A DNA stretch of 63,752 bases, the filler included, from Hausera hauseri (taxonomy: Eukaryota), in NCBI GenBank assembly GCA_046269625.1. It is 11 parts of 11 records of this genome, joined end to end, with 100 filler letters (N's around TTAATTAATTAA, not from the genome) between each part and the next. Parts side by side here need not be neighbours in the genome. Positions count along the whole stretch, not along the records: positions 26,131 to 34,343 come from JBJURY010726546.1; 10 more parts are not named here. One strand, 5' to 3'. The position numbers and the translations under genes were made by a program. This document shows positions 13,369 to 48,300 of the stretch, piece after piece. Numbering within the stretch: position 1 is the stretch's first letter; the number at the start of each line of letters is the position of its first letter. The notes beneath the pieces were generated by a model, which saw only the letters and a program-made list of their open reading frames with translations, did not search any database and had not been told where the DNA came from.

Positions 13369-14772
13369 TTAAAACCTTGGCGGCGATCTAGCCTCGAATG
13401 TATTAAAGACGTTGATACCTCTAATTCTTTCAATGGTGCTCCTTCGTATGCTCGCCTCCGACTCCACCCAAATTTTCAATTCTTCAACTGTCCGATTTAA
13501 CCTCTTTTCGGAGGCATATCGCTCCCATAACAGTACTATGGACTCTGGGAGCTTCTCTACAAGGCTTTGGTATAAGAACCCTCCGCCTAATTTTTCCTTC
13601 CTTTTCAAATTTTGCAATCGTACTGTTATGCCATCCAACAATGCAATGAATCGGTCTAGGCCTACAATGTCTTCTTGCCTTATTGGTTTAAAACGTATTA
13701 CCTCAGTCATAAAGGCGGCATAACACCGTTGCTCTCCTCCGTAGTAGGAGTGAAGCTTTCCCATCGCGGCTTTATAACCTTCTTCTGATAAATCAAAGTT
13801 CTCAATCAGCCTTTTCGGTTCTCCATATAGGCATCTTTCTAACTGCAGCTGTTTGCATATGGTAGACATTGACGTTTTGTTTACACACGTATCGCATGTT
13901 CTTTTCCATCGATCATATTCAACGACTGCTCCACCAAATTGTGGCAGTTCCAACCTTTGTAACTTTGGCAGATTTAATTTTTCTTTCATTTCGCTGTCTA
14001 TTGCCTTTTTTGTAGAGTTGGCGACCAATTTATTATCCCGTAGACTGCGTTCATAAATTATCGTGTTGATTGTTTCATTTTGTTGATCTAACTTTTCTAT
14101 CTCATTTTCCAGTAATGCTATATTCTCTTTCTTTTTCAGTTTTTTAGCTGAGGTAGTCAAAAAACACAACTTCTCTTGGACATTTGCGAAAACCCTTTCG
14201 TAACTTTCATAAAATACTTCGTAATCGTGTTCATTCAAATTTACATCCATTAATCTCCTTCTAATCGAAGCTAGTTCATTTATAGGCCTTCGCCGTTCTG
14301 CAATGCATTCTTTAAGTGCCTCTGCAGTCAACTCGCTACCTCCTTTCAGTCGGAACATCACTTGAATTGTTGAACCACGTTTTAAATTTTCCACTTCTTC
14401 GTTGGTCCGTAACGGCTTCCCGCAGTGTAACATCATGAACTCATTTTTGATCTTCAATTTTTCCTTTATAAGTTCGATCCGATTGAGATGTGACAGGGTG
14501 TCACTTACATCAGCTATGAAGTATCGGTCATCGTAGTGTATAATTATCTGTTTTTCCATTTTTTCGACTTGCACAGCTGGAATTTTGTATGTCTTCTCTC
14601 CCTTTATCCTTCCTATTTCGTACTGCTCTAATTTGACCTTTTTCTTCTGATTCCTTGACTCTCCTTTTCCTTTATTTTCTTCTAGCGACTGTCCTTTCAC
14701 ATCCTCCGAGTATGTCCGATCTCTTTTTTTCCCACTTTCTGATTTCTGTTTCCCAATACAAATTCTTTTCAA
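13369..14772 (-). CDS. gag: BEL/Pao Gag ORF: basic linker, ubiquitin-like domain (about 14338-14560), coiled coil, DUF1759-like capsid domain
   Basis: 467-aa open frame containing SDTL...HCGKPL...NLKRGSTIQVMFRLKGG, followed by BEL Gag motifs. Confidence 0.88.
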   Translation of the reverse strand: MKRICIGKQKSESGKKRDRTYSEDVKGQSLEENKGKGESRNQKKKVKLEQYEIGRIKGEKTYKIPAVQVEKMEKQIIIHYDDRYFIADVSDTLSHLNRIELIKEKLKIKNEFMMLHCGKPLRTNEEVENLKRGSTIQVMFRLKGGSELTAEALKECIAERRRPINELASIRRRLMDVNLNEHDYEVFYESYERVFANVQEKLCFLTTSAKKLKKKENIALLENEIEKLDQQNETINTIIYERSLRDNKLVANSTKKAIDSEMKEKLNLPKLQRLELPQFGGAVVEYDRWKRTCDTCVNKTSMSTICKQLQLERCLYGEPKRLIENFDLSEEGYKAAMGKLHSYYGGEQRCYAAFMTEVIRFKPIRQEDIVGLDRFIALLDGITVRLQNLKRKEKLGGGFLYQSLVEKLPESIVLLWERYASEKRLNRTVEELKIWVESEASIRRSTIERIRGINVFNTFEARSPPRF

Positions 14773-15839
14773 TACTTTTATTTCCTTCCTTTAAATTTAT
14801 ATTTTTACGTCTGTTGCTTTCTATGTCACAACTAGACGCTTTTTTCTCTTCAATGTTACCATAATTACCGATCAAGTCTTTAAATTCCTCCAAAGGCGTC
14901 ATCGGTACTTTGCCTTCAAAGTTGTACAATTTGTACTTTCCATTCTCTATTACAACTTTTACAGGCTTGGTACGGACTCCCGCCTCAAACACACTGTGAT
15001 GAAGGAAAAGATGGCCGAAATCAAGAAGAAGGACATACAGACCTTCGAAGACAATCGCATTACGCGGTTTGTGTCTACGGATCACGTTGCAGAGCACCAA
15101 CCGCACTCTGCTACCATAAAATGGAAATTTTAAATGTGTCTGGTATAACGAATTATGCATATTTTTTCTTAAATGGATAACTAGTTTGCATCTACCATTA
15201 CCCCTTAGCACACTTCTCATTATCTCCTTTCTGAGTCCATATGAAATTTCTCCTTGGACATATTTCCCTTCAATCTCGTTTAAATTATTCTTGATCATGA
15301 AGACTTTAGATTTCATAACTATTTCATATCGTGTTTCTTCCCTTATTATTAATTCAAACCCCTTTTTGTTGGTCCCATTACCACACGGAAGATTCATGCG
15401 CCTTTTATATACAGAATTTATGATGTTGTTATGTTTACTTTGAGTTATTGATTTCCATCTTTACAACGTCTAACTCGAGTATCACCCCCGATTCCCAAAT
15501 CCTTATATCTAATATATCCCCATATGAAAAAACATTGAGGTTAAATTTTCAATTATACTCGGCCTTTGTTCTCGCGGTGCCTTTCCGCGGGGGAGTACCT
15601 CCACCTTTGAGTATTAATATCCATACAATCACTCTGATTTTGTCATACAATCCGGTACCACAGCCCCGGCTGACCTCCGGCAAACCAAAAGAACGTAAAC
15701 AAAAACAAATACTATTATTAAAATTATTTCTAACCCTTTCAAGTTTTAATATACAGCGAAAATACTTCTCCCCTTCAATGTCCTCCTCGTCAGCACAGCA
15801 ATTGGTTATTATTCTATATGCGACTACGTTTGAGTCATC

Positions 15840-16344
15840 AGGATGTTCATCGTTTTCTTTGTACGTTTCAGCTTCAGCAATCATTCTCTCGCTTTCACCC
15901 TTTGGTAATCGCCTTCTCTCGTTCACTATCATTATTTCACTCTCCTTATTCCATCCAATTCTACCAAGCAGATCATTATCTTCTATCATGATGCGCTCTC
16001 CTTTGTAAACTTGTTTGTCAATGACATTTCGTCTGGTCAACGTAATTGTGGCCCAATCAATAGTTTCAATGACCAAGTTAAAAGGAGTTACATCAAGAGA
16101 TAGATGATCCCGAACGGCTTTTGATTCATCTCCTATTAAACTTATGATCTGTATTGTTGTACTATACGCAATAGATTCGTCATAATTGATCAGTTTGTTA
16201 AATTCTTTTCCATTAAGGAGATCCAAAACAACATCATAAATGATAGTCTTGTCTAGTTCTGTGTATCTGAGAGATTGTTCAATTAGTGCTAAAGTCGTCC
16301 GAAGATGATCAATGTAAAGTTTCCCTAAACGGACTTCTATGATT
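15840..16344 (-). pseudogene. HSP70: Hsp70-derived segment at the 5' end of the BEL/Pao ORF
   Basis: IIEVRLGKLYIDHLRTTLALIEQSLRYTELDKTIIYDVVL-DLLNGKEFNKLINYDESIAY...GDESKAVRDHLSLDVTPFNLVIET...QVYKGERIMIEDNDLLG...NERRRLPKGESERMIAEAETYKENDE aligns with cytosolic Hsp70 (ITRARFEEL..DLFRGTL.PVEKALRDAKLDK..IHDIVL; FNGKELNKSINPDEAVAY; LLDVTPLSLGIET; QVYEGER.MTKDNNLLG; NDKGRLSKEDIERMV.EAEKYK.EDE). Confidence 0.88.
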
Positions 16345-26130: not shown

Positions 26131-28652
26131 AATTCATCCTCAATTTGCTTCTTACTGTGCTTGACTGGTAAAGGTGCTCTATCACCTCGTAGAAATCTCG
26201 TTAGAAATTTTCTTTCGGCTTCACTTCCTATGAATAAAGGTTGGTAATCCTCATTGGATCCAATTACAAGTGTTTCACTCTCATTAAAGTTGTGCCTTAT
26301 GTTTACTAAGTCCACATATAGTATTTTCTCTATTAATTGTGGTATGGATAACAGTCTTAACTCATTCATAATTATCAACTTATGTATTTGACTCTTCATA
26401 CAGGTTGAATGTATACCACATCTATAATTCCAGGCCTTAGTTAATTCGTGCATAGGATTATACCATGGCAGAGTTAATCCGGATACGTTCATTATTTCAT
26501 CAAATATTCTTAGTCCGGAACTATAAATTCTCCTTTCGTTTTCATATCGTTCTTTAAAGGATTTACCTTCAATTAATGCTTCCTTAGCTAGCTGACATCG
26601 AAAGCTAGTAAATAGCAATAGATTATCTTTCATAGGATGAATATTGGGGTTATATTTTGATTTTTTTTGATATTGTTTAAAATATTTCTTATACATGTCA
26701 AGGTAAAATGATATGAGTTCTTTTCTTAAATGATCTGACGAACTCCATAAATAATTTGCATACTGAATACTTTGATGAATGTCCCAGTTGTTTCTTTGAC
26801 GGGATGTTATCTCATTTTGATACATTTCTGGCATACTTTCTCCGTTCATTTTAAGTCGTTTAATACGTTCTTTCCATTCCAACTGCATTATATGCGTTTG
26901 TCTAAGGTCATTAATCATTATTCTTTTGTCTGGGGCTTGATCAAGTGTAGTTACAGGGATTCTATTATTCAAAGGTAAGTGAGCTACTCGATTAGCGACG
27001 GTATATAATTCGTATTCCTCCGTTGATAATTCGTGTCGTTTTCTACGAAGCTTATTTATATGACGAAATATTGGAACGACTTCGTTAACAGTCAAATATG
27101 GGTGATCTGTTATTGATTCTACCCCTTGGGCGATTAATGCTATGATTATTTGTGTCTCTTCCGAGAGTACGTCAAAAGGAGAATAAATTTCCTCTTTTAT
27201 ATAGTTGATTATGTCTTCATTTTGAGTTATTAATTGTAAATAGTGTTGATTAAGTTTCGGATCTTTAGCATAAATAGCCAGGTTTAACTGAACTGAGGTA
27301 TTCAGATTTAACCATCCTTCATCTTGTTCAAATCCTCTAACGAAGACTTGTTGTTCTCCTTTATCTTCTTGTATTCTTTTACGTTCGTAACTCTCTATTT
27401 GCCGAGATAACGGTAGGTGTGGATCTATGGTAGAGCTTTGAGATTTGTTTACTTCTAATTGTTTAATACAGTAATTATCTACGTGATCAGTGTTTTCATG
27501 CTCAAGTGACAAGGATTTATTAATCGCTATCTCCTTTAATTGTGCTGTGGTTCGACGTTTTATTAATTTTGGTTTGATAGTTGGGACTTCTTCTATTACT
27601 GTATGTCCTTCGATCGGAGTAATGTCCTCATCACCACTTGATTGTTTGGTTGTTTTCATATGGAACATTAGATTAATAAAGATTAACAATACCAACCAAG
27701 TCAACGAACTTTCTGGTATATCTTTCGGTATCATTGGAGCGGCTTCTGCTGTTCCAAATAATATAAATGGAATAACGAGTAATATTAATATCGGGTAAGT
27801 TAATCCGATACCAATTGTATTGAACTGGTTACTGTTAACTGATATCTGTTCATTTATTTCTTTTTCTTCATTAGTATTCGAAATGCTTTCCTCAGTAGGT
27901 TCAAATTTATTCATGTCGGTGTTAATACTACTGGTTATCTGATTGTTAGGGTTATTACTTCTAACTGCTGCCCAGAAGGCATCGTTCTCTTCCTTGAAGC
28001 GTTCATCCGTGTATTCCTCCATTTTGGATAACTTTTTATTATAGTGTAACCCTAAGATTCGCTCGTCAAAAGCATTTGATCCTCGGAGACTCCTTGTCAT
28101 AACTGCTGCTGTTTCTTTATTATTACCTATCCTTTGTCTGCAAGTGTTTATTATTCTTTTTCTTTCTTCTTTAAATGGTCTAGCTATTTCGTCATTATCA
28201 GGTAGTTCAAAAAATATTATATGATACCGTATTGCATTTAACTTACCCGAAAATCCACTTGCGTTTACTGTATCAAATTTATCTATATCCATATAATCCT
28301 CCGGGGTTAAAATGGTGTTCACATTTCGTTCTAAGTAATCGTTCCATACTATCCGTGCTTCGTCTTCCTCAAAAAGTTTTATATCTTTTCGAATAAGATC
28401 ATCCTTTATGGCCATGAGTATCTAAGTCATCCAACATTTAATCGCATAAGCTTCAGACTGAGAATTAGCATTCAACTCTTCACCATAATGTTTAAACAAG
28501 TCCAGACATTGATTAGCTACCTTTGATATTCTTTTAGAAGTTCTACTTGCTATTAATTTCGTGGATAGTCTTTGAAGATAGTTAGTTACATTAGTTATAG
28601 CAAATGAGTCAGTCATATCAGTTACATTGAATGACGGTGGTCTTTTTTGCAA
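26131..28652 (-). CDS. Giant modular polyprotein, part 3 (76-aa and about 760-aa frames separated by one stop; runs off the contig edge)
   Basis: KCWMT*ILMAIKDDL...WNDYLER...GKLNAIRY is the third copy of the repeat domain. It also has a third signal/TM unit and a fourth PLFIGS motif. Confidence 0.82.
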
Positions 28653-30070
28653 AGTTGAGTGATTAGCATACGTTCTCTTCGACTTCCGATGAATAAGGGT
28701 TGATATTTATTTCTGTCTCCATATACTATACTTTCTTCATATGTTAGGTTATGCTTTTCTATTAGAAAATCGAATGATCGTAAGCAACGAGTTATTTGTA
28801 GTATTGAATGGGTTTCTAATCGGTCCTTTATTAACAATTCGTGTTTTGGATACATAGGTTCATTACCTAATATTCCCATCGTTTCGTTCCATGTTCCTAT
28901 CATAATTTTAACTGGTTGTAACCATATAGGTTGTAATTGTATTTCCCTTATAACTCGTTGTAGTAAACGAAATCCTTGGTAATACATCCTAGTTTGAAAA
29001 TCTACCCATGGGTTGAATTGCACATCGTCTATCGGAATCTTGTATGAGTTGTATAGAAGACTGGATATTAAAAGTAGTTGATAATCATAGGTTGATTTCC
29101 CAAGGTCTATTCCTGTTTCATGTCTTAATCGATTAAAATATGACTCATATAAGATCATGTACAGTTTCATGAAATTTTCTTTATCCTCGTAAGGTAGTTG
29201 ATCTATGCTACCTTGTAATAACAGACAGTTAACAATATCTCTACTCCGTTCTCTAGGTGTTTCCCCATATATGCGAAGTTTTGTATCAGGATAATCAGGA
29301 TTGAGTAGAGCGGCATATTCGGTTTTTGGTTCAATATCATCTAACCATTGTTCGTTTCTGTCGGCTATAATGCGTAGATTCTTTATAGTATTTGGAATAT
29401 TTTCCTCTTCTGAACATATTCTTGTTGAACTTACTGGAAAGTGTGGTGGTTGATATACTAATCTATATAGCACTTGGTTCATTTCTTCCCTCAGTGATGG
29501 AAGATTCGCTGGGTTTACTCTTAAACTATTTACTAATCTAAAATAGGGAATTATTTCATTAGCCATTGTATAATTATGTATTCCTTTAGGGTATAGCGTC
29601 TTCGCTATGATAGTTAGAATCGTCTTCGTCTCGTGTGTCGTTTCCTTGGGTGCCAAATTAATATCTTCTCGTATTGCTTTTATTAGCTCCGGTGCTATAC
29701 GTTTATTAGTTTTATATGGTTCCCATTCACACCCATTTTTATTTAATTCTTCCATAACTTCCTTTAGTGATTTTGGTAACTTTCTCCATTCTTCAGTGTC
29801 AACATAGTTTTTTCGTAATATTCCTTTAGGACAACTATATCTCCCTTTCTTCGAAGGAGGTTTATATGTAGAATTAATATCTTCCCAATCCTCTCTTTGA
29901 CCTGGATATGGTAATCTTTTTTCTAAGTGAAAAGAGCATTCGTGAAGTTTATTCTTTTTTCTATATTCTGTCATTATGTGTATTAGACTAGAATAGCCAT
30001 CGCCAAACTGTGTTTGTTCTTCGTGCTGTTCCTCCGGTAATCGTTGATCTAGAGAAAGGTTTAGTTGCAT
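28622..30070 (-). CDS. Giant modular polyprotein, part 2 (482 aa), probably joined to part 1 before a stop and frameshift
   Basis: Same strand and composition as part 1. It ends with YQPLFIGSRRERML, homologous to the motifs in part 1. Confidence 0.8.
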   Translation of the reverse strand: MQLNLSLDQRLPEEQHEEQTQFGDGYSSLIHIMTEYRKKNKLHECSFHLEKRLPYPGQREDWEDINSTYKPPSKKGRYSCPKGILRKNYVDTEEWRKLPKSLKEVMEELNKNGCEWEPYKTNKRIAPELIKAIREDINLAPKETTHETKTILTIIAKTLYPKGIHNYTMANEIIPYFRLVNSLRVNPANLPSLREEMNQVLYRLVYQPPHFPVSSTRICSEEENIPNTIKNLRIIADRNEQWLDDIEPKTEYAALLNPDYPDTKLRIYGETPRERSRDIVNCLLLQGSIDQLPYEDKENFMKLYMILYESYFNRLRHETGIDLGKSTYDYQLLLISSLLYNSYKIPIDDVQFNPWVDFQTRMYYQGFRLLQRVIREIQLQPIWLQPVKIMIGTWNETMGILGNEPMYPKHELLIKDRLETHSILQITRCLRSFDFLIEKHNLTYEESIVYGDRNKYQPLFIGSRRERMLITQLCKKDHRHSM

Positions 30071-30194
30071 TTCTACCGATGGTAATTTTGAAGGTACTTC
30101 CTGAGTATGGTCTTCTTTGTTCCTATCGACTTTATCTTTCGTTTCTTTGTCTTTTGCCCAAAAATTTATTGTCTGTTATTATGCGGAATGTTTT

Positions 30195-33100
30195 CTATGA
30201 CAACTCATCTTCCTGTATTTCTTGGTTACAAATATATTCTTCACGCTCCCTTTCAAAAGGTTCGGCTAATGCTTGATCGTCATTCAACATGCAAAACAAC
30301 ATCCTATATCGTAAGGCATTTAGATTGCCTGTCAATCCTTTTTCATTTATTCGTTCCAGCCGATTGATTTCAATACTATCTTCCTCTGTTAAGGGTGTAT
30401 CTTCATTTCTAAGTAGGTAACCATTCCATAATATTCGAGCTTCTTCTTTTTCCATTTCCTCTACCTTTTCTTTCGTTAATTCGTCTTTTATTGTCATTAA
30501 TACGTAAGTCAACCAACAATTAACCACGAATAGATCGGATGTTGTCTTATTTACCAATTCTGCTCCGAAATTTTTATACAGGCCAATACATTTCTTCCCT
30601 ATTTTCCTAGCTTTCTCTTGATTTATAAATTTTTCACACATTGGGGATGTTTGCCGTAGTAGCATAAACATGTCTATATTAGGTAGTTGTAGTTTTTTCT
30701 CATTTGTAGTATTAATGAAAAGAATTCGGTCTTGTGCACTACCAATAAACAGAGGTTCATACTTTCTTATATACTTATAATCGGAATGATTCGATGTAGA
30801 TGGAGTTTCTTTATACAATTCAAAATTATTATTATAGATTCGGTTTGTTTGTGGTCCACTATTTATCCTTAAAATTCTCACTAATTTGTCATAGTTCGTA
30901 CAATTTTTGAATGTTTGATGACCATAGGGAAATCGGAAAGAGGATTCCATTGCACTTACCTTAGGTTCGTCAATTATGAGAATTGTTTTATCCATATCAT
31001 CAGGTATTTCAAATCCTTGTTTACCACGGCGTCTATCCCGATTGAAATTTGGGGCGCACACTATCCTTTGTCCCCCAAAACATTTATCCCAATCGAATTT
31101 TAGAGCGCTAACGATCCTTAAGAATTCCATACTAGTCAAAATACACAATCCCTTGCTAGGTATTGGTCCGATATTTATGGGTTTTTTAGACTCCCCTTGT
31201 TCGGGTATCTTTACAAAATTATCCATCTCGATATTATTGTTTGGTTCCATTAAGTCATCATTTCCTTCAACTTCGCTATTGTCGCATAATGAGTCCTCAT
31301 TTTTCTCCATTTTTGAAGGTTCTTCACTGAGATAAGTACATGTATTTTGCTCTTCGAAAATGTCTAATTGTTGTATCTCTTTCGTCGTATCACTCAATTT
31401 CCTTTTCTTTTTATCTCGTTTTGATTGACAATTATTTATTACATCCTCTCGTTCCTTTCTATACATTTCAACCTTCTGATGGTTATCATCTAGTAGACAG
31501 AACAGTAACCGATAACGTAATGCATTTATTCTGCCTGACGTTCCTCTAGCGTTTACTTGTTCCACTTTGTCGATTTCTTCTCTATCTTCCTTAGTTAGTG
31601 ACGTATGTATATCTCTATATAGATAAATATTCCACAAAATTCGGATTTCATCTTCTTCCATTTCTTCTATTTCCTCCCTTTTTAATTCATCCTTTATTGT
31701 CATCAATGTATAGGTCAACCAACAGTTGATTATGAATGCATTAGACGTTTTTGTATTCACCAGTTCACCTCCAAAATTTTGGAATAGTCCAATACATCTT
31801 TCTCCTATTTCTTTAGCTTTTTCTTGATTTACATACTTACTGCATAATGGAGATGTTTGTTGTAACAAAGCAAGTGTATTATTAGTAGAAATTCGTGGGA
31901 TTTCTTTTCCGAAATAATAAATAAGGAATTTTCGTTCCTGCTTACTACCAATAAACAAAGGTTCGTATCTTGATAAATGGTTTAAGCATTTCGATATGAT
32001 CCACTGCTTCTCATTATCATTAGCATCATAATCAGCCGGTTCAGGTTTACTTAATTTCCAATTAATGGTATGAATATACTGGATCAGTTCTATCGGAGTA
32101 AATGTTTGGGCAGATAGCAACCTCATTTCGCATATTTCCCTTAGATCCTTTGCTAATTTATCGTAATTTATGCAGTTGTGTATTGATTGATACTCATAAG
32201 GGAACTCTAAGGGTGATTGTCTCAAACACTCCAATTGCTCTTGTATCGATGTATTAGTAGATGTACAACTAGATATTATTTCCGTATCTTCCGAAGGGAC
32301 TTGATTTGAAAATTTATCCGTTTCCTGGTTAGCAATATGGGTTCCTTCTTGTTTTTCATCATCGAGTGTACCATTCAAGGAATTTGTGACTTTTATTGGT
32401 TTTTTGCATTTGGAGAGACGTTCATAAGATTCGTCATCATTGTTACTAAAGAATTTACTCATCATCAACAACGAAAATACCCATAACAATACTGAAGTCC
32501 ATGAAGAATTAGAGCGATGGGATACAGTCTCGACTGCCTCTGTTGCACTAATCATGGAGAGCAAACATATTCCCATAAGGAATAACGTTCCCAGGGAGAA
32601 TGTGGAGTAACTCTTGATACCTGATGATTCTCGTTTTCTATTTTTTTCTTGGAGGTCTTGAATGTGCATTGCTCTTGTTTCGTTAGCTATCTCGTCCATA
32701 TATTTAATGCTATTACCCGCAAATTGTAATCGATCTATTTTCATCCACTGTTCAGGGGGAAGATTAATATCTAGAGGCTGTCCCATTCTTCTGTTCCAAA
32801 CTCGTTTAACTTCCTCTACCCCATTAATAAGTTCTCTGCCTCCTATATTTATGTTATGATGTTTAAAAATTTTTATTGCTTGACTAGCGGCTACATAATC
32901 ATGATACTGTAATTTTCCTGGGCTAGCCAGATCAGGAATCGTATAATACACTTCTTCGCAGCTTATTTTCAGGAAAAATGTGTCCAATGCGGTTGATGCA
33001 TTAAAGTCTAATTTTAGGTCTTCGCAAACTAATTTTATTATGGGTCTATATTGTTCATCTGTTATTCCGCACTTCTCGTGGTATCTGCTAAGGAAATCTC

Positions 33101-34343
33101 TTAATTCCACTACGCTATTTATAGGTCCTTTAAGTAATTGCTGTGCGTGATTTATGCGTTCTGGAGTAGCTAACAAGAAATTCTCCAGTCTGTGTCGGTT
33201 AGCTGCCTCTCTGGTCAATGGGAGTGGTGGCAAGTTTCCCCCTTTTTGTTGAGGTAATTCGAAATAATTCTGTTCAATTGGTTTGACCTCTTTACGTTGT
33301 ATCTGTTTAGTAGGGTCTATTTTCCTTAGCTTAATATCGTTATACTCAGGGAATTTTGGACTTTCTTCTGATTGATGTTTTTCAATTTCCTCTCTTAGTC
33401 GTTTAATATTTTCTTCAGCTTCTTCCAACTTCTTACTTAAGGCGATATAACTCACGGGTGGCTGCATATTGCTTGTAGTCTGCATTTCCATTAAATCGGG
33501 ATATATTGTCGTTGTTGATATAGGTCTTGGTACGTCTTGAAACGAATTTCGCGGTAGTTTCTGTGGTATACTCACCATACTATTTATCGGACTAGTGTCC
33601 ATATCAATTACCGAAGGCAAGGGTACTTGTTTTCTTGCTTGATCATTCAAGGAAGAATTATCTATTTCCTCATCATCCACTATTATACGGCTATTAAACA
33701 TATAATAAACTAATATCGACAATAACATGATTGTACTGCTCCACGCATTTGTAGCTGTTGTCATGTGCGTTGGTTGGGCGTCCGCACATCCAAATATTAT
33801 AAGCAATATTAGCGTTAACAGGGTTATTGTCGACAACTTAAAAGGACTTCCGAAAATTGTAGATGGGGTATTAATTGTAGGTATTTCCATTACTCGTGTT
33901 TGTGTTATTTTTCGTGCTAGTGTAGACTCTGTATTCTGTTCACTTAACTGCTTTAATGTAACATAATTTAATGAGGGTGGAACAGTCTCCTCTCCTGGCG
34001 CAAACCACCATTGATCATTAGGTTGAGGCTTGGTATCCTGGTAACCTTCGCAGTTGAATACAATTGATCTTCCAATAACTTTGAGTTCTGCTCCCGTTAG
34101 TTTGTATAGTACATCTAAACCAATAATAAGATCAGAATACGACTCTTGTGGGTTGGCATAACAGGTAACATCAATATAACCTATAGTTAGATCTAATTTT
34201 CCGCATGCTTCGGGTATATAATGTGTAATTCGTCTATATAATCGCAAATTTATACGAGTCAGCGGAGTAGTGGTATCAAGTTCCGCATTAACATACTTAC
34301 CGTATACTTTAACCAATATTGGTATCAACAAAGGGTAATCATT
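30195..34343 (-). CDS. Giant modular polyprotein, part 1 (>1378 aa, open from the contig edge): degenerate retropepsin, two signal/TM units, two copies of an unknown repeat domain
   Basis: An uninterrupted 4.1-kb frame in AT-rich DNA. N-terminal VKVYGKYVNAELDTTTPLTRI...DLIIGLDVL resembles a retroviral aspartyl protease fold, with DTG changed to DTT. Confidence 0.85.
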   Translation of the reverse strand, partial: NDYPLLIPILVKVYGKYVNAELDTTTPLTRINLRLYRRITHYIPEACGKLDLTIGYIDVTCYANPQESYSDLIIGLDVLYKLTGAELKVIGRSIVFNCEGYQDTKPQPNDQWWFAPGEETVPPSLNYVTLKQLSEQNTESTLARKITQTRVMEIPTINTPSTIFGSPFKLSTITLLTLILLIIFGCADAQPTHMTTATNAWSSTIMLLSILVYYMFNSRIIVDDEEIDNSSLNDQARKQVPLPSVIDMDTSPINSMVSIPQKLPRNSFQDVPRPISTTTIYPDLMEMQTTSNMQPPVSYIALSKKLEEAEENIKRLREEIEKHQSEESPKFPEYNDIKLRKIDPTKQIQRKEVKPIEQNYFELPQQKGGNLPPLPLTREAANRHRLENFLLATPERINHAQQLLKGPINSVVELRDFLSRYHEKCGITDEQYRPIIKLVCEDLKLDFNASTALDTFFLKISCEEVYYTIPDLASPGKLQYHDYVAASQAIKIFKHHNINIGGRELINGVEEVKRVWNRRMGQPLDINLPPEQWMKIDRLQFAGNSIKYMDEIANETRAMHIQDLQEKNRKRESSGIKSYSTFSLGTLFLMGICLLSMISATEAVETVSHRSNSSWTSVLLWVFSLLMMSKFFSNNDDESYERLSKCKKPIKVTNSLNGTLDDEKQEGTHIANQETDKFSNQVPSEDTEIISSCTSTNTSIQEQLECLRQSPLEFPYEYQSIHNCINYDKLAKDLREICEMRLLSAQTFTPIELIQYIHTINWKLSKPEPADYDANDNEKQWIISKCLNHLSRYEPLFIGSKQERKFLIYYFGKEIPRISTNNTLALLQQTSPLCSKYVNQEKAKEIGERCIGLFQNFGGELVNTKTSNAFIINCWLTYTLMTIKDELKREEIEEMEEDEIRILWNIYLYRDIHTSLTKEDREEIDKVEQVNARGTSGRINALRYRLLFCLLDDNHQKVEMYRKEREDVINNCQSKRDKKKRKLSDTTKEIQQLDIFEEQNTCTYLSEEPSKMEKNEDSLCDNSEVEGNDDLMEPNNNIEMDNFVKIPEQGESKKPINIGPIPSKGLCILTSMEFLRIVSALKFDWDKCFGGQRIVCAPNFNRDRRRGKQGFEIPDDMDKTILIIDEPKVSAMESSFRFPYGHQTFKNCTNYDKLVRILRINSGPQTNRIYNNNFELYKETPSTSNHSDYKYIRKYEPLFIGSAQDRILFINTTNEKKLQLPNIDMFMLLRQTSPMCEKFINQEKARKIGKKCIGLYKNFGAELVNKTTSDLFVVNCWLTYVLMTIKDELTKEKVEEMEKEEARILWNGYLLRNEDTPLTEEDSIEINRLERINEKGLTGNLNALRYRMLFCMLNDDQALAEPFEREREEYICNQEIQEDELS

Positions 34344-38515: not shown

Positions 38516-41020
38516 ATAGGGCAGGTTTGGTGACTTCCAGAAACTACCGAGGCAACCCTGTCCGCCCCTTTCATAATTAGAGCATCATTGTTTGATATGA
38601 ATCTGTATGGCCTATGTTGGTTTTTACGTAGCTAGACTTGAGTTCCGGAATTTATTGAGACCACCCCATTCTTTTCACCTGGACATGCTGCATCTGGACA
38701 CACGCTTGCCAAGAACAGCAGTAGAACTAACGATCAGTTTCAGAAACTCATTCGAAAATATTTTATCCTGATTGTTGATGGGACATTCCCATAAATGCCC
38801 CGCATTTTCTCCGCATCTTCGCTCCAACCGCCACGGAGAGGAAACACACTTAAAGTGTGGTACCCTGATATGCATTTACTCTAAGCAGAACGTTTTGCTT
38901 TTTACAATATTACATGCTCATCGGCATTTGTAAAATGATCCTTGTACGATACTGATAGGATGCAGTGGCAACTCGTCAAAGTGAAAAAAAAAATAGTTGT
39001 TCACAAACTTTAATACTTCTACTACTCTCCCATTACAAAAACTACCACCGATAATAATAAACAATTTACATTTTTTTAATAGCATGATAGCGTTACTCAT
39101 TAAACAGCGTGGACTGTTGTAATTCTCTCGTCCTCCTGTGACAGAGTGAGATTTNNNNNNNNNNNNNNNNNNNNNNNNNNNNNNNNNNNNNNNNNNNNTT
39201 AATTAATTAANNNNNNNNNNNNNNNNNNNNNNNNNNNNNNNNNNNNNNNNNNNNCATGCGCTCGAGATTTATTAAATAAAAAAAAATAGTACAAGAAGTT
39301 GCCGATAGGTGGCGCTGTAGTTCAACAAGGCATTTTACAGATGTTCAATATGTTTGCCGTAAGTAGTCCAATACATCACGAAGCGGGGCGGTCGTGTTTT
39401 TCGCCGCTCCGCTTCAATCGTCATCATGCCCTTATTTTTGATACTACAATATTGTCTTTATATCACTGGATGCGTCTCGAAGTCATCTACATCGTGTACT
39501 ATTTCTTGTTTATGTAACTTAACAAAAAACCGTTAATTAGTTAATTAATCATTTTCAACCCATATCTTTTACATTGGAATTGTTCTAAAGCGTCATGGAA
39601 TGATAAAAAGCTTGCCAGATTCGTCTTGTAGTGAAACTTCAAAACATCGTAGCTCCACGACTATTCAAGATTTTTTCGAGCGACCAACACCAACATCTTC
39701 AGAAAAATCGCCGGAACAGGGTGACGTTGACTAATTAGCTGTGAGTTATTAATTTCCTCATAATTAAGTTTCTTTTAAACTATCACGTGACCTATACTGT
39801 TTAATCATCATAACTCTTCAAAAAATGAACTGTTTACCTTTGGATTTTTACCACATTGCCTTAACATCAAGACCTAGCCACTATTTAAATTTCGAAGGAA
39901 TATATTCATTATTTCTTTACTAATTAAGATTATTAATTTTTGCCGCCTTTTCTCTCAATCAGAATACGAAAAATTCGTCACATCTTTCGCATGCAAAGGT
40001 CTAATACAGAGTCTATGCTATATGTTAATAGCTCGCTTTTTGCACCTTTAAAGTCTAATAACTTCTGCATTTCTGCTTCAATATTATTAAGATTTACATC
40101 GTTGGATGCAGAAAATTCCTCTCTACAAGACTGTAAATTATCAAAAATCTTCTTTAATTACTCTCTGAATAATTAACATTCAAATGTTATCACGTGACCA
40201 TCAACAATCTTTAAATATCTTCTTTGGATGTCTACACTTCTATAATTTATTCAACGTACTCCTTTACAAGAATTCCAGCTATTGACCACAATTTGGTGCC
40301 ACAAATTTATTAATTACTCAAGAACTATTTATGTCAGAAGCTTATTTTTTCATCAGCACAGAAGTAAAAATCGCCTCCATCTATCTACGAATTTTCGAAC
40401 TGTTCTGATTTTTTTTAATAAAGGAGAAATTTGACAATCAAACTTATCACGTGACTTTTTAACCTCAAGAGTTCAGAACCAAAATGGAGTCTAGACATGT
40501 TAAACGTCAATCTTCTCTCAAGGTAACCGTATTGTTTGATAAACATTTCATTTATCGTCAATGTTTTCAAATATCCCTTATAATATGTTATTAACAACGA
40601 AGTAACCACTATATTGACGACCCTTTCTATGATTATGTAACCTTTTTGTACCCAGAACAGTTGTAAACAACTTCATTACATCATTACTAATCATACTATC
40701 TTTTTTACAACTGTCAAACCCTTGACTAGAAACAATCAACATTTTTGTCTCAATGGAATGACATAGCCCTCTTGCCTCTCTGAGGCCATTTTGTGTCTCT
40801 TTCGGACCTTGCTGCTAAACCTCTAAGAACTAACTTGCATTAAAGGAGTCATTAATATTATTATAATCTGTATATAAATACATTTATTCTACTTGTTTTC
40901 CCTATAATGGTACCCACCATAACTAAGTGTATCTTTCTACCTTTTATTGTATACTTGATTAATGTACCTCGCTTAACTATTTTCTTATCACCCCGCATGT
41001 TTCTCTTATACCTTACTTTT

Positions 41021-43675
41021 GGGAACGCCATTTTGTTTCCCCCTGCCTTACTTATACTTTTGGGACAGACATTTTGTTCCCTAAACCTTGAAAATCTTTT
41101 CTAAAGCCTTTGTTATTGAGCCTAGTTTCTCATTTTGGGGTAATAATTAGTTTTTTTTATGTGTTATTTACCATGTATTTATATCTAAACCTTTAATAGG
41201 GAAACGCCATTTTGTTTCCCCTTCCCTTGTTATTATGTGTTTGCCTAGTTTATCACTGTTTCTCTACTGTGTTATTATACCTTTTATTGTACATATTAAC
41301 TTTGTTACATCATTAATCTGGCTTCGCCATTTTGTTTCCCCTCCCTTGTTTATTTAATGTATGCCTGGCAGGATTTTATCTTTTCGGGAAAGACATTTTG
41401 TTTCCCACGCCTTGAAAACCTTTTCTAGAGTCATCGCTACTCTATTTTTAAGCCTTTGCTATTGAGCCTTGTTTCTCATTTTGGGGTAATATTTAGTTTT
41501 ATACGTGTTTAATTACCATGTACTTATATATAAACCTTCAATTGGGAAACGCCATTTTGTTTCCCCTTCCCTTGTTATTATTGTGTTTCTATACCTTTTA
41601 TTGTACATATTAACTCTGCTGCATCATCAATTTGGCAACGCCATTTTGTTTCCCTCCCCTGTTCATTTTATGTAGGCCTGGCAGCATTTTTCTTTTCGGG
41701 AAAGACATTTTGTTTCCCATGCTTTGAAAACCTTTTCTTGAGTCATAGCTACTCTAATTTCGGGAACGCCATTTTTGTTTCCCCCTCCCTCGATCACTAC
41801 GTGCATGCCTTGCTGCATAATTGACCTTTTTGGAGACACCGTTACTAAAAACTCTTTATAAGATTTAATTTATGTAATTATATAAACCATTGTTGTTTGT
41901 AATTATTGTTATTTTCAAGTGCTGTGTATCTTTCTAGTGTATTTTTAAAACATTTCATTGTGCATACTACTTTATTCCCCACTACCTTTACTAGGGAAAC
42001 CCTTTAATTTTGTTTTGACTTTACTTATATATCTGTACCTTGAACTTGACAATTTTAATCGGGAACATCATTTTGTTCCCACCCCCCTTTTTTCTAACTC
42101 TTTAGCCTCTTTATTCGGGAATAACACCTTGTTCCCCATTACCTTTACTAGGTAAAACCTATACTCGGGAAAATCACTTTGTCCCCTATTATCTTTATTT
42201 TGTGGATGACATTTTACAACGTATCTCTATAAGTATTTCATCTAGCAAAACCAAAACTATTTTGACAACCATTTAAATTAGTTTTTGTGAATGACATCTT
42301 ATAACGTATCTCTATAAGTATTTCATCCAGCAAAACCAAAACTATTTTGACAATCATTTAAATTCGGAAACACCATTTAGTTCCCCACCACCTTTACAAG
42401 GGTCAACCCTTTATTAGGGAATGCTATTTTTAATTTCGGGAACACCATTTAGTTCCCCACTACCTTTACAAGGGTCAACCCTTTATTCGGGATTGCTACT
42501 TTGTTCCCCACTACTTTTTTGACTTTACTTATATATCTGTACCTTAAACTTGACAATTTTAATTGGGAACACCATTTTGTTTCCCACCCCCCTTTTTTCT
42601 CACTCGTTTGCCTCTTTATTCGGGAATAACACCTTGTTCCCCATTACCTTTACTAGGAAAAACCTATACTCGGGAAATTCACTCTGTCCCCTATTTCTTT
42701 ATTTTGTGATTGACATTTTACAACGTATCTCTATAAGTATTTCATCTAGCAAAACCAAAACTATTTTGACAACCATTTAATTTAGTTTTTGTGAATGACA
42801 TCTTATAACGTATCTCTATAAGTATTTCATCCAGTAAAACCAAAACTATTTTGACAATCATTTAAATTCGGGAACACCATTTTGTTCCCCACCACCTTTA
42901 CAAGGGTCAACCCTTTATTCGGGAATGATATTTTTAAATTCGGGAACACCATTTAGTTCCCCACTACCTTTACAAGGGTTAATCATTTTTTCGGGAATGC
43001 TACTTTATTCCCCACTTCATTTTTATTTTATTTATTTATTTTTTTCTTAACTTTGCTTTGTTCACATGTTTTTAATATATTTTATTTTACATTCTAAGTT
43101 ATTGCTATACTATCTTAGCTACGGATTTGACTCCTTAACTCGGGAACGTCACTTTATTTCCCACCCCCTTTCATCAATCTTGACAACCTTTTCATTCGGG
43201 AATAACACTTTGTTCCCCACTACCTTTACCAGGGGATAACCCTTTGATCGGAAATGTTACTTTGTTCCCCTCTACATTTATTAAGACAATGTTACTAACT
43301 TATTTACAATTTTAGTCATGACATTTAATAAGCAAGTCTCATAAGCTACTTTGACCAAAACATGAATCCACTACTTGGGAATGCCATTTTGTTGCCCACT
43401 TCCTTTCCTTTATCAATGATACAAAAACTCATTTTTTAAACTCTGTCTTGATATCATGTTTTATCTTTACCCGGTTCGATTCACTCTCTCTTTGGACACG
43501 ACTCCTTAACTAGAGAATGCCATTTAATTTCCCACATACATTTATTTAGTAAACAATTTCTTGTAATTAGCAAAACCATAACTACTATGTCAACCTTTCA
43601 ATTCGGGAACACCATTTTGTTCCCCACTACCTTTACTAGGGACAACCCTATAATCGGGAATGCTACTTAGTTCCC
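41021..43675 (+). repeat. Complex array of about 30 GGGAAY-N8-RTTCCC hairpin motifs with higher-order duplications (units of about 340 bp and 504 bp)
   Basis: Copies at e.g. 41021, 41199, 41386, 41544, 41698, 41762, 42061, 42117, 42438, 42565, 42622, 42870, 42942, 42993, 43142, 43198, 43605, 43656. Segment 42010-42510 is nearly identical to 42515-43015. Confidence 0.9.
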
Positions 43676-43765
43676 TATTTCCTTTTCACATAAATTTTTA
43701 TTAATGTATGTCATCATTTGTCTAATGTATTTTATGTATCCTTTAACTGCCTTTATGGCAAAGAA

Positions 43766-44405: not shown

Positions 44406-44800
44406 TCAAAAGGGAAGATATGGGTAGATATCGTTCCAGCTATTGAATTTAGTTTAAACGCCGCCCATCAGCGCTCAGTTGCATGTAGCCTCAATGAAGT
44501 CATTTTTTGGGTGTAAAATGCATCTTTTTGGCAACAATTCAAAAGACGGATAACAAGTTATCAATTTCAGAAGCCAGACATGAGCAAGGAAATCATATGG
44601 AATAATGATAAGAGAATTAATAGGAGTTTTACAGTTGGGGATCTCGTCTTGGTAAAGAATGAAAGTAGATGTAAGGGCACGGATCGATATGAAGGGCAGT
44701 TCGAAATAACTCGTAAATTTCATGATACAAGCTACGAACTCGTTCGCATCGTAAAATGGTTGAAATCGTTTAAGCAAGGGGATGTGAGGAACAAATATAC
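44406..44800 (+). mobile_element. 3' end of a Gypsy integrase, followed by a polypurine tract and an LTR start (TGTGAG at 44783)
   Basis: W.DIVPAIEFSLN; FTVGDLVLVK....RYEGQFEI; then AAGCAAGGGGA directly before TG. Confidence 0.7.
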
Positions 44801-45328
44801 AATTTTAATAAATGTACAGTATATATAAATATGAAATAAAATAAAATGTAAGGAATCCGGAATATTCTTTTTGTTAAAGAACAGCTGTGATTGATATTAT
44901 TTAATGTCGACGAACAATATTTTTAATATTGCTGACATTATTTCCTGTTCATGACACTTCACCTTGCGGTAGAATAATTCTGAATTATTACTAGCAGCCG
45001 CCAAACAATAGTTTTAATATCGGTGACGTTGTTTCGTGCTTATAATAAATCTATTGACATTACCTTGTGTATATAATTTTTTAATTATATTTTTCACCAT
45101 ATGTTATGGTTACAAGATGAGTATATATATTTGTCATTGACTGTAAAATATAGAGCGATTGAAATGATTTGAGTCTAATATGTATTATTTAGATAACTGT
45201 AAGTACGCTTTTGTGATTTCATTTTATCTCATTTTATTCTTTTCTTTAATAACTGAGTATCATTAAAGCTTTGTTTTATTTCTGTATACGTAGTCATATT
45301 AAAGTACGTAATAAGGGATATAATTAAG

Positions 45329-48300
45329 TGTTATAAAATTTCTATCCCGTTTCGGTATTCCGGTGTTAATATACCGGTTGTCTTATATAAAGATAAGTAA
45401 AGGTATCGACACCAGTGTTCCTCCTGGTGAACGAACTACAATAAGGCAAATTAAACTAACAAGCAGACCCCACAGGCTCCTTTTAAAATTTAATAATAAT
45501 CTAGGTCTAAGGAGAGAATACCTTAGACTTTATCAGAAATTGATTAAGAGTATAAGTTTGGGGTGGTAAAGTAAGCTCAATCAACCTTTAAACTTATCAA
45601 TGGTGCCTCGAGTGAGGAGGCATACTGGCATCGTATTCTTTACAAAATAAACGTAAAGTACATGCTACTATCACAACTTCACGTACTGATTCGGCAAAGT
45701 GTAGTTCCGAATCAGACGAAAATCCACAAATAAACTTAAACGAGAACCCAGAGATGTCGAATTCCGGAGTAGGCGCAAACATAGGCAGCAACCTACCAGG
45801 AACGATGGTGTTACCGATGGATAAATATGAGGCCAAACCAGATCAAGAATATGCAGAATTTATTATGCAATATGAAATGCACTCCGAAAGCTTTAACTGG
45901 ACAGATGAGCTTAGGATGAAGTGGCTCCCTTTGCACCTTAAAGGCATAGCACTAAATGCTTATACACAAATAAAAGATAATGAAGATAAAGCTGATTGGG
46001 CTAGCCTTGCTGGAGTAAATAGCTGAAATGAGGAAATACTATATAATCAGACCCAGTAACTCTTCATGGGCAGTTCCAATTGTAGTGGTACAAAAGAAAG
46101 ATAGTTCTATCAGAATGTGTGTAAATTATCGTGCTCTCAATAAAATGACAATAGATATCACCTATCCGTTACCTAGAATCGACGAGCTACTAGATAATTT
46201 AAAAGATAAAATGTTATTTACTACGCTAGATCTACCTGAAAGATTTTGACAAGTAGAAATCCAGGAAGATAAACAAAAAACAGCTTTTGTAACTGCAGAT
46301 GGACATTATGAGTTCAACTAAATGCCATTAGAAATGAAAAATTCCCCGGCAACGTTTCAAACAGCTATGGATATAATAATAATGGACGCTCCACACATAA
46401 TGTGTTATGTGGATGATGTCATAATTGCTTCAACTGGTTATAAACAGCACAAAGAACAGCTCAAAGACAAATGTTGCTTTGCTAGAACCAAAGTAGACTT
46501 TTGAGGTCATACTGTGAGTAGGGAAGGCATTATTCCTAAGATTGGAAAAACAAATAAAATACAATATTTTCCAGTCCCGAAAACAGTTAGAGCAGTCCGT
46601 AAATTTCTTGGTCTTACAGGATATTATAGAAAATGCGTTAAGGACTACCAGCAAATAACGTCTTCATCACGTTCGCTACTGCAAGAAAACTCCAAACTTG
46701 TTTGGACTCAAGAATGCCAAAAAGCATATCAACAGCTAAATGATAGCTTATTGGCTCCACCAATATTAACTTTTTCAAATATATCAAAATCATATTTCCT
46801 GGCCACAGATGCGAGTAAAATTAGAATTAAGGCTGTTTTGTCCCAAAAAGGATGTTCAAGAACAAGAACATCCAATATCGTTAGAAGGCAGGAAGTTGCG
46901 AAAACATGAAAGAAACTACTCTACAATCGAGAGAAAACTACTTACGATTGTATATGCATTGGAACAGTATGGACAGTATATGTCGGAAACCAAACCCATC
47001 ATTATTTATACCGACCATAAACCACTACAGTCGTTTAAGAACCATAAGAATCCAAGTAGTCGTGTAATGAAATGGGCAATGTTGCTACAGCCCTATAGTT
47101 TAATGTTTGAGTATAAAATAGGCAAAGCCAGTGCTAATGCCGACTACATGTCGAGAATACCTAAAGACATGGTCCAAAAAGAAGAAGAATTGGTAGATAA
47201 TCCGGGCGTTATAGCAGCCATTTGGAGTATCACGGAACAAGAAAAATCTATATTATAAAACAGCAGAACGATGAGTTTCAACGAAAAAAACAATACCAAA
47301 AGATACTAACCTCCATGCTCATCTAATAAAATTCGCAGAAAATGACGAAGTAAAAGACGGTATTATGTACTATAATTATAATGGAAAATTTGTTGTCGTG
47401 GTTCCGCAAGATGTAAAATTACTATTGACCAGCCCTTATGGAATTTTCAGCGATGGATATTCTGGGACCACTGCCAGTGACAAAAAATGGAAATAAGTAT
47501 ATGTTAGTATTTGTTGACTTATTTTCCAGATGGCCGGTCGTAGTTCCAATATCGGATCAAAAGGCCCAAACTATTGCCCAAGCGTTGTTGAAGAAATTGT
47601 GTTTAATTATAGAGCACCTACCAAATTATTAACAAATCAGGCCCCAAACTTCACAGGAAACGTAATTGCGGAAATATCGAAAATATTTCGAATATTACAG
47701 CTGAAAACTACTCCGTATCATCCACAGACTAATGGAACGGTAGAGCGGTTTAATAGAACTTTAACTAATATGCTGGCGACAATGGTTAACGAACGGCAGG
47801 ATGATTTGGATGAATATATAAAGCCCTGCTTGTTCGCCATCAGGAACACAATTCATCCGACAACAAAAGAAACACCATTTAATTTGATGTATTTTAGAGA
47901 TGCTCATATGCCGGTCGATTTAGATTTTAAGGTGCCTGTTTCCCATCTGAAAGATGTGGAATATAAAGAACTTCTAGAAAAGAAATTGGGATATGTATGG
48001 AATTTGGCTTCACGACGTATAAAATTATGCCAGAGTATAAAAATAGATACAATGAAAAAGCTAAGTCACACCGCTTTAAAGCTGGAGATAAAGTCATGTT
48101 ACATACAACTTTGAGTAAGAAAGGAAAGACTCCAAAATTGGACAGACCATATAAGGGCACATGATTCAAAAGGTGGATGAAACTAACGTTTGCCTAAATA
48201 AGAATGAACGCAATAAAACGGATCCGATAAAAGTTCACGTGAACCGATGCAAACAGGCACCGGCAGAATGAAAACTACGGAGTGAAAATCTTAATTTATC

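What the first reader, a model, noticed from the sequence alone, without database searches (positions are those of the whole stretch)
27655..33845. Three internal signal-peptide plus transmembrane cassettes punctuate the polyprotein
Seen: TLLTLILLIIFGCADA-QP..SSTIMLLSILVYYMF (about 33690-33845); LFLMGICLLSMISATEA-VE..SSWTSVLLWVFSLLMM (about 32445-32610); ILILLVIPFILFGTAEA-AP..SSLTWLVLLIFINLMF (about 27655-27820). Each is a hydrophobic helix, an AxA-type site, a loop of about 10 aa, an SS-led second helix and an acidic patch. Established: RNA-virus polyproteins use host signal peptidase at such sites. Inference: a reusable cut-and-anchor cassette that yields separate membrane-tethered cytosolic proteins, while the nearby protease has lost its DTG.
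Basis: partly seen in the sequence, partly recalled or inferred. Interest (0 to 1): 0.75.

Follow-up and report, generated by a model that had tools for sequence, protein, structure and literature searches.

The report
Cut-and-anchor cassettes in a retroelement polyprotein
A decayed copy of a very common jumping gene, probably from a flatworm, carries three short membrane cassettes that look built to let the host's signal peptidase cut its long protein into membrane-anchored pieces, right next to a dead copy of the protease such elements normally use.

Summary
The three cassettes are real, on the minus strand of one 8.2-kb contig (26131-34343). Each is a 12-residue hydrophobic core, (A/T)-(D/E)-A, a 10-13-residue loop, an SS-led second helix, a K/R and an acidic patch. 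They hold all 6 hydrophobic segments of the contig's ORFs; a rule-based scan finds 3, against a mean of 0.003 in 300 shuffles. The source is probably not an RNA virus. The contig is a broken copy (two stops, two frame changes) of a repeat laid by 21,564 contigs in one run. It starts with a retropepsin-like domain lacking the catalytic glycine (D-T-T here, D-P-T in other copies), and no RT follows. A host gene in the window groups with a fluke. Between the cassettes lie unknown helical domains that are tandem duplicates. Best reading: an LTR-retroelement-derived polyprotein that host signal peptidase cuts in the ER lumen into membrane-tethered cytosolic proteins, as in bunyavirus NSm. Cleavage is inferred from rules only (no SignalP, no experiment); uncleaved hairpin anchors remain a serious rival. 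I found no description of this arrangement in a retroelement. New variant of a known kind; interest 0.5.

The parts
26131..34343 (-). One contig of the concatenated window: internal fragment of a high-copy repeat, open at both ends, broken by two stops and two frame changes
   Evidence: Spacers and contigs; 21,564 / 3,186 / 443 / 342 contigs laid from four runs at 80-100% likeness, all 30 bins covered in each
34044..34343 (-). Retropepsin-like domain, probably inactive: D-T-T at 34277; only 52 residues from the Asp to the IIG glycine, suggesting a shortened flap (normal spacing recalled as about 60-75)
   Evidence: ESM Atlas feature search: top hit RVP, 0.95, 10 of 10 best named hits in one clan; no Pfam or PDB sequence match; spacing; D-P-T in other copies
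33690..33830 (-). Cassette C1: helix 1, ADA|QP, 13-residue loop, helix 2
33216..33689 (-). Low-complexity Pro/Ser/Thr linker with a predicted coiled-coil stretch
   Evidence: Read from the sequence; only sub-threshold coiled-coil-type Pfam hits
32619..33215 (-). Domain M (about 190 aa, unknown); weakly related to the N-terminal part of domain H
   Evidence: Only relative found: P0001, 95 aa, 61%; hhalign to H E 0.006; 5 and 1 of 1000 shuffles reach the score against H_A and H_B
32460..32594 (-). Cassette C2: helix 1, TEA|VE, 10-residue loop, helix 2
   Evidence: a variant seen in 4 contigs of run X1 keeps T-E-A|V-E while neighbouring residues differ
31434..31976 (-). Repeat R_A (about 180 aa, helical, begins with YEPLFIGS); a short FPY..NC.NYDKL motif precedes it at 32261-32139
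   Evidence: phmmer self-matches; AlphaFold model pLDDT 55, all helical; no fold match
30231..30776 (-). Repeat R_B, 54% identical to R_A over 173 codons; same short motif at 30986-30867
30175..30197 (-). Break 1: stop and frame change between ORF1 and ORF2 (decay or a true gene boundary: not resolved)
28640..29689 (-). Repeat H_A (about 350 aa, unknown)
   Evidence: 24% identical to H_B over 352 columns, E 3e-18; no Pfam or PDB sequence hit
28146..28714 (-). Repeat R_C, split by a frame change near 28650 and a stop at 28424-28422; shows that ORF2 and ORF3 were once one frame
   Evidence: phmmer matches of R_A to all three pieces; some copies in runs X1 and X2 do not match this copy at the break (table 4)
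27660..27815 (-). Cassette C3: helix 1, AEA|AP, 10-residue loop, helix 2
26181..27215 (-). Repeat H_B, running into the start of a fourth R repeat (26255-26131) that the contig end cuts off

Best explanation
The contig is a decayed internal piece of a high-copy, large LTR-retroelement-type repeat, probably of a flatworm. In the active ancestor the region was translated as part of one long polyprotein. At each cassette, helix 1 acts as an internal signal with its N-side in the cytosol. Host signal peptidase cuts after (A/T)-(D/E)-A in the ER lumen. Helix 2 stops transfer and returns the chain to the cytosol. The products are separate accessory proteins, each held by a 10-13-residue lumenal stub plus helix 2 at the N-terminus and by the next helix 1 at the C-terminus (which signal peptide peptidase might remove). 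The unit 'cassette + linker + helical domain' was multiplied by tandem duplication. The dead retropepsin domain does not do this cutting. Shown: cassettes, repeats, high copy number, loss of the catalytic motif. Inferred: element class, one polyprotein across break 1, topology, cleavage. Unknown: what M, R and H do.
For: Cassette pattern 3 against a mean of 0.003, all 6 hydrophobic segments inside cassettes, 0 in a polytopic control. Ala at -1, Ala or Thr at -3, Gly or Ser shortly upstream and no Pro at +1 in 3 of 3, though the cassettes are weakly alike; chance of [AT]xA near one helix end is 0.022, of small-x-small 0.22. C1-C2 and C1-C3 alignments are reached by 12 and 10 of 2000 class-preserving shuffles. 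C1 and C3 are each followed by related domains, M and H_B. A variant copy keeps T-E-A|V-E. K/R just after helix 2 in 3 of 3; glycosylation sequons in the soluble parts are at background, 21 against 19.8 +/- 4.1, which fits a cytosolic location. Retropepsin features. High copy number with transition-dominated differences; 20 of the 40 listed differences are synonymous against 33% expected, p 0.02. The host ABCA fragment groups with three unnamed proteins (100) and Paragonimus (97) in a quick tree. Precedent: signal peptidase leaves Bunyamwera NSm as a cytoplasmic loop anchored at both ends (PMC7926653, passages); retroelement polyproteins with in-frame membrane parts exist in planarians (PMC6431247, section 7) and hookworm (PMC9094657, passages).
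Against: No signal-peptide predictor or experiment was available; the rule was written post hoc. Leave-one-out HMMs did not recover the third cassette significantly (best E 0.53 and 0.65; C2 not in the top six), and C2-C3 similarity is not significant (276 of 2000). If the cassettes are duplicates they are not three independent tests. C3 has no basic residue and two acidic ones in the 15 residues before helix 1. The helices are short (about 12-17 residues), which also fits uncleaved hairpins. No RT, RNase H, integrase, Gag knuckle or LTR is on the contig, so the element class rests on one degenerate domain that Pfam does not detect. Conservation of the cut site in other copies was seen for one variant of C2 only; one search listed 40 of 2,370 differences. 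The host tree is a quick tree with long branches, and the ABCA contig need not come from the same organism.
Confidence: 0.5

Rival explanations
1. Same element, but the cassettes are uncleaved helical hairpins that pin one long cytosolic protein (or pieces cut by an element protease encoded elsewhere) to the ER or another membrane; the small residues are helix caps inherited from one ancestor.
For: Short helices and loops; cassettes probably descend from one copy, so the motif arose once; a small-x-small pair near a helix end has a 0.22 chance.
Against: Ala at -1 and an acidic -2 are kept in 3 of 3 cassettes that otherwise share little, and in a variant copy; the ABCA hairpins do not meet the rule.
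Confidence: 0.27
2. The cassettes are ordinary N-terminal signal peptides of separately made proteins (spliced or subgenomic messages, or internal starts); the open frame upstream is a by-product of gene fusion or duplication.
For: A Met lies 20, 25 and 33 residues before each helix 1; break 1 could be a true gene boundary; retroelements carry stand-alone small membrane ORFs (PMC11952523, passages).
Against: The frame is open for 171, 365 and 202 codons upstream of C1, C2 and C3 in a sequence of about 33% GC, and those stretches encode conserved domains; such Met distances are unremarkable.
Confidence: 0.1
3. The contig is part of a large integrated virus or other non-LTR giant element (RNA-virus relic or DNA virus) that happens to carry a dead retropepsin; the cassette mechanism could still hold.
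For: No RT, integrase or Gag motif in 7.9 kb after the protease-like domain; domains match nothing known.
Against: Very many diverged copies in four organisms' runs; no relative in IMG/VR by three scans; the retropepsin fold is typical of reverse-transcribing elements (recalled).
Confidence: 0.13

Closest known systems
Burro / GYPSM1 giant Ty3/gypsy elements of planarians (PMC6431247, section 7 read in full; Grohme et al. 2018 not seen)
   Same: Thousands of copies in a flatworm; huge polyprotein stuffed with accessory domains; membrane-crossing part in frame; decayed copies with stops and frameshifts.
   Different: Burro has PR followed by dUTPase, RT, RNase H and integrase, an Env before PR, and BCL2, BIR, MATH, SUMO and ankyrin motifs. 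Here a dead PR-like domain is followed by about 2,600 codons of unknown repeats and ectodomain-less cassettes. No Burro sequence could be compared.
Orthobunyavirus NSm processing (Bunyamwera Gn/NSm/Gc; PMC7926653, passages)
   Same: Internal signal peptide cut by signal peptidase; upstream product keeps the signal as a C-terminal anchor until SPP acts; the released protein is a cytoplasmic loop anchored at both ends.
   Different: There it is one spacer inside a glycoprotein precursor with large lumenal domains. Here it is repeated three times, with only 10-13 lumenal residues, and separates large soluble domains in a genomic repeat.
Atlas virus and other nematode belpaoviruses with a single Gag-Pol-Env frame (PMC9094657, passages)
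   Same: LTR element polyprotein with internal transmembrane helices and predicted host-protease sites.
   Different: The sites release lumenal Gn/Gc glycoproteins; no ectodomain exists here.
MDG1-group sORF2 and reovirus FAST proteins (PMC11952523, passages)
   Same: Retroelement membrane protein with a tiny ectodomain, one helix and a cytosolic tail.
   Different: Those are stand-alone ORFs of 63-107 aa with an ectodomain of about 30 residues, often myristoylated, with a polybasic patch; the products here would be 380-2,000 aa with a 10-13-residue stub and an acidic patch.

Membership tests
Ty3/gypsy LTR retrotransposons (Metaviridae) | Retropepsin-type protease domain | tested here: met
   ESM Atlas features 0.95 to RVP, 10 of 10 named hits concordant; not detected by Pfam HMMs or PDB phmmer; single-sequence fold failed, pLDDT 36
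Ty3/gypsy LTR retrotransposons (Metaviridae) | Catalytic D-[ST]-G in that protease | tested here: not met
   D-T-T in this copy, D-P-T in loose ends of run X2
Ty3/gypsy LTR retrotransposons (Metaviridae) | RT, RNase H and integrase directly after the protease | tested here: not met
   No such Pfam hit and no YxDD or HHCC in the coding frames over 7.9 kb; this domain may be a second, dead protease copy away from pol
Ty3/gypsy LTR retrotransposons (Metaviridae) | Gag upstream; LTRs and target-site duplication | not testable with these tools
   Contig ends on both sides; no genome held. Domain M did not match a Gag fragment of the window
Ty3/gypsy LTR retrotransposons (Metaviridae) | Many dispersed, diverged genomic copies | tested here: met
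   21,564 contigs laid in run X1, 13,742 of them under 95% alike; dispersal itself not seen, run kind not on record
Burro elements | Host in the planarian family Dugesiidae | tested here: inconclusive
   ABCA fragment groups with a fluke protein at 97 in a quick tree; no named planarian row was in the tree
Burro elements | BCL2, BIR, MATH, SUMO, ankyrin, dUTPase or Env domains in the polyprotein | tested here: inconclusive
   None found by Pfam in the three ORFs or their pieces, but the contig is 8.2 kb of an element type that exceeds 30 kb
Burro elements | Sequence likeness to Burro1-4 / GYPSM1 | not testable with these tools
   No Burro sequence was at hand; phmmer of ORF1 residues 1-1199 found only P0001
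RNA-virus polyprotein | RdRp, helicase or viral glycoprotein domains; intact single frame | tested here: not met
   No such Pfam hit; stops and frame changes; fragment only
Signal-peptidase-cleaved internal signal | Hydrophobic core of about 7-15 residues, small -3 and -1, no Pro at +1 (rules recalled) | tested here: met
   3 of 3 cassettes
Signal-peptidase-cleaved internal signal | Cut site conserved in homologous copies | tested here: inconclusive
   One C2 variant keeps it; no data for C1 or C3 sites
Signal-peptidase-cleaved internal signal | Predictor call (SignalP, DeepTMHMM) and cleavage in microsomes | not testable with these tools
   Neither program nor experiment available
sORF2 / FAST fusogens | Stand-alone short ORF, ectodomain of about 30 aa, myristoylation motif, polybasic patch | tested here: not met
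   Cassettes are in frame with long domains; stubs 10-13 aa starting Q, V, A; 1-2 K/R then acidic residues (features)

The most novel reading that the evidence does not exclude
A flatworm giant LTR-element lineage has turned a signal peptide plus stop-transfer helix (possibly an Env shrunk to a 10-residue ectodomain) into a portable separator. It duplicates this together with accessory domains and lets host signal peptidase, not its own protease, release a set of ER-anchored cytosolic proteins from one polyprotein; the dead retropepsin is kept as a non-catalytic module. This would be signal-peptidase processing of non-envelope proteins in a retroelement, used in a modular way.
Probability: 0.3. 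Interest if true: 0.72.

Novelty: new variant of a known kind. Interest (0 to 1): 0.5.

Why it matters
Retroelement polyproteins are normally cut by their own protease, and host proteases are known for their envelope parts. A repeated, ectodomain-free cut-and-anchor cassette would explain how giant elements can add accessory genes in frame and still deliver them as separate, membrane-placed proteins. It would also give a minimal natural module (about 45 residues) for testing how short a loop signal peptidase accepts. The family-wide dead protease and three unknown helical domain types (M/H, R) with almost no database relatives add interest. The score is held down because this is a broken fragment, the mechanism has a close precedent in bunyaviruses, and cleavage is untested.

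Tried and rejected
No whole genome was held. No RNA holder listed; the kind of the four runs is not on record. Relatives: phmmer of ORF1 1-1199 against 1.84 billion representatives gave 1 hit; word search of ORF1 among shorter proteins gave 0 of 8,000 candidates; IMG/VR scans 0; GTDB scan 0; JGI scans 0 and 2 chance matches, best tblastn E 0.058. Domains H were not sent to the large protein searches. Pfam, PHROGs and PDB sequence searches gave nothing credible for M, R, H or the cassettes. ESM Atlas for R: recognition 1383, best 0.90 to DUF6707, rejected as weak. R model (pLDDT 55): no Foldseek match at E <= 0.001 in PDB or BFVD, best VIA Z 6.8 to dynein, rejected; this excludes no fold. The idea that M is a capsid domain got no support. 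Rfam: 0 matches. Earlier scan notes: none by sequence or place. Depth per bin was not used to rank parts. Loose ends near 33976 and 34063 were considered as a different downstream architecture; read by eye they look like diverged homologous sequence, so this was dropped. Literature: 'giant + LTR retrotransposon + signal peptidase + polyprotein' 0 papers; 'retrotransposon + internal signal peptide + polyprotein' 1 paper on ERV env, listing only; searches listed nothing describing this cassette in a retroelement (listings only, except the papers read). PMC11410931, PMC13238120 and PMC13524379 (passages) added nothing on it. Supplements were not read; those of Grohme et al. 2018 and Repbase entries may describe Burro membrane segments. 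No complex prediction was run.
Full report
Setting. The window is 11 contigs joined by spacers; no genome is held. The finding lies on contig 26131-34343, minus strand, in three ORFs: ORF1 34343-30195 (1,382 aa, open at the contig end), ORF2 30175-28622 in another frame, ORF3 28421-26131 back in the frame of ORF1. The other contigs hold decayed Bel/Pao, gypsy and Polinton-like pieces and two host genes, the look of a repeat-rich animal genome.

Observation. The six peptides are there. Each cassette has a 12-residue hydrophobic core, a short polar stretch ending (A/T)-(D/E)-A, a loop of 13, 10 or 10 residues, an SS-led helix of 15-17 residues, a K/R within two residues and an acidic patch. A rule-based scan found 3 cassettes against a mean of 0.003 in 300 shuffles; all 6 hydrophobic segments of the ORFs sit in them, and the polytopic ABCA control gave none. 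The rule was written after seeing the cassettes. Common descent is moderately supported: 12, 10 and 276 of 2000 class-preserving shuffles reach the C1-C2, C1-C3 and C2-C3 scores, while leave-one-out HMMs were not significant.

What carries them. The first 100 residues are retropepsin-like by language-model features (0.95, 10 of 10 named hits), though Pfam and PDB sequence searches miss them and the single-sequence fold failed. The motif is D-T-T, and loose ends from other copies read D-P-T, so the loss of D-T/S-G is not private to this copy. The Asp-to-IIG distance is 52 residues, shorter than I recall for active retropepsins. No RT, integrase or knuckle motif follows. Four runs from four coded organisms hold the stretch; 21,564, 3,186, 443 and 342 contigs were laid, most under 95% alike, differences mostly transitions, all 30 bins covered. 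The run kind is not on record. Of the 40 differences listed (of 2,370), 20 are synonymous against 33% expected (p 0.02). This fits a decayed copy of a once-coding, high-copy element rather than a replicating RNA virus. The ABCA fragment is 57-62% identical to three unnamed proteins and at most 45% to named ones among the 120 listed; in a quick tree of 34 picked rows plus the query it joins them and then Paragonimus at 97. A flatworm host is likely but not firm.

Architecture. Order: dead protease - C1 - linker, coiled coil, M - C2 - R_A - R_B - break 1 - H_A - R_C (broken) - C3 - H_B - start of R_D. R copies are about 50% identical, H copies 24%, and M resembles the start of H (E 0.006; 5 and 1 of 1000 shuffles). 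R_C is split over ORF2, the gap and ORF3, so these were one frame; break 1 is unresolved. C1 and C3 are thus each followed by a related domain, which suggests that cassette and domain were duplicated together. M, R and H match nothing: one 95-aa relative among 1.84 billion representatives, none in viral, prokaryote or JGI collections, no fold match for a pLDDT-55 helical model of R.

Mechanism. With two helices per cassette all large domains lie on one side; a K/R right after helix 2 and background sequon counts (21 against 19.8) point to the cytosol. Helix 1 then enters as an internal signal, the (A/T)-(D/E)-A site faces the lumen, signal peptidase cuts, and helix 2 anchors the next protein. 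One variant of C2 keeps T-E-A|V-E while its neighbours change. The same logic is established for Bunyamwera NSm, which ends as a cytoplasmic loop anchored at both ends, with SPP trimming the upstream signal (PMC7926653, passages). Cleavage here is inferred from recalled rules only. Against it: short helices, non-independent cassettes, no basic flank before helix 1 of C3. Uncleaved hairpins (0.27) and separate genes (0.10) remain open. That the cassettes stand in for the dead protease is the weakest step, because an active protease may lie beyond the contig.

Comparison. It resembles planarian Burro elements in host type, copy number and a domain-stuffed polyprotein with an in-frame membrane part (PMC6431247, section 7), but fails the pol order and could not be compared by sequence, so I do not file it as Burro, nor firmly as Ty3/gypsy. 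Atlas virus shows host-type sites in a single Gag-Pol-Env frame, but for lumenal glycoproteins (PMC9094657, passages). sORF2/FAST proteins differ in size, ectodomain and charge (PMC11952523, passages). An earlier, unchecked note of this scan reports a membrane-helix module in diatom copia Gag-Pol (e1-7561898); I did not test it. Searches listed no paper on such repeated cassettes in a retroelement; the library lacks most subscription journals, including the original Burro paper and its supplement.

Verdict. Observation confirmed; interpretation partly supported, with the setting changed from RNA virus to a retroelement-type genomic repeat. New variant of a known kind. Confidence in the cut-and-anchor reading 0.5; interest 0.5; most novel reading probability 0.3, interest 0.72.

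Noticed in passing
window 1-63752: The window is 11 separate contigs of 4.2-9.6 kb joined by N44-TTAATTAATTAA-N44 spacers, so neighbours across spacers are not linked.
   Followed up: yes
window 13369-14790 (-): Bel/Pao-type Gag (DUF1759, E 1.5e-11) preceded in frame by a stretch ending RLKGG that looks ubiquitin-like by eye; Pfam did not call ubiquitin. If real, a second case of host-protease processing in an element of this genome. A degenerate Hsp70 piece lies at 15552-16343.
   Followed up: partly
window 48272-48508 (+): Signal-peptide-like ORF start after the integrase of a decayed gypsy element (44406-49249), probably env; it shares LSTITL with helix 1 of C1, but the HMM match is weak (E 0.11).
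   Followed up: partly
window 52116-52418 (-): Small stand-alone ORF with signal-like helix, about 20-residue loop, second helix and short tail: same layout as the cassettes, no sequence likeness seen.
   Followed up: partly
window 40985-43700: Complex nested repeats built on GCCATTTTGTTTCCC-like and CCCCACTACCTTTAC-like motifs, with 72-, 85- and about 504-base periods; possibly an LTR or satellite-like region.
   Followed up: no
window 30457-31690: Single contigs in run X1 join R_B to R_A (skips of 1,226-1,228 with 20-22 other letters, net 1,206, a whole number of codons): either copies with one repeat fewer or further R paralogues.
   Followed up: no
window 55057-56307 (+) and 57196-59268 (-): NXF1 and ABCA host gene pieces run 1.25 and 2.07 kb without an intron: an intron-poor host or retrocopies.
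   Followed up: partly
window 2102-2965 (+); 60221-61042 (+): Polinton-like DNA polymerase B fragment with an endonuclease VII motif, and a gypsy RT whose contig starts with an intact IDTG protease motif.
   Followed up: no
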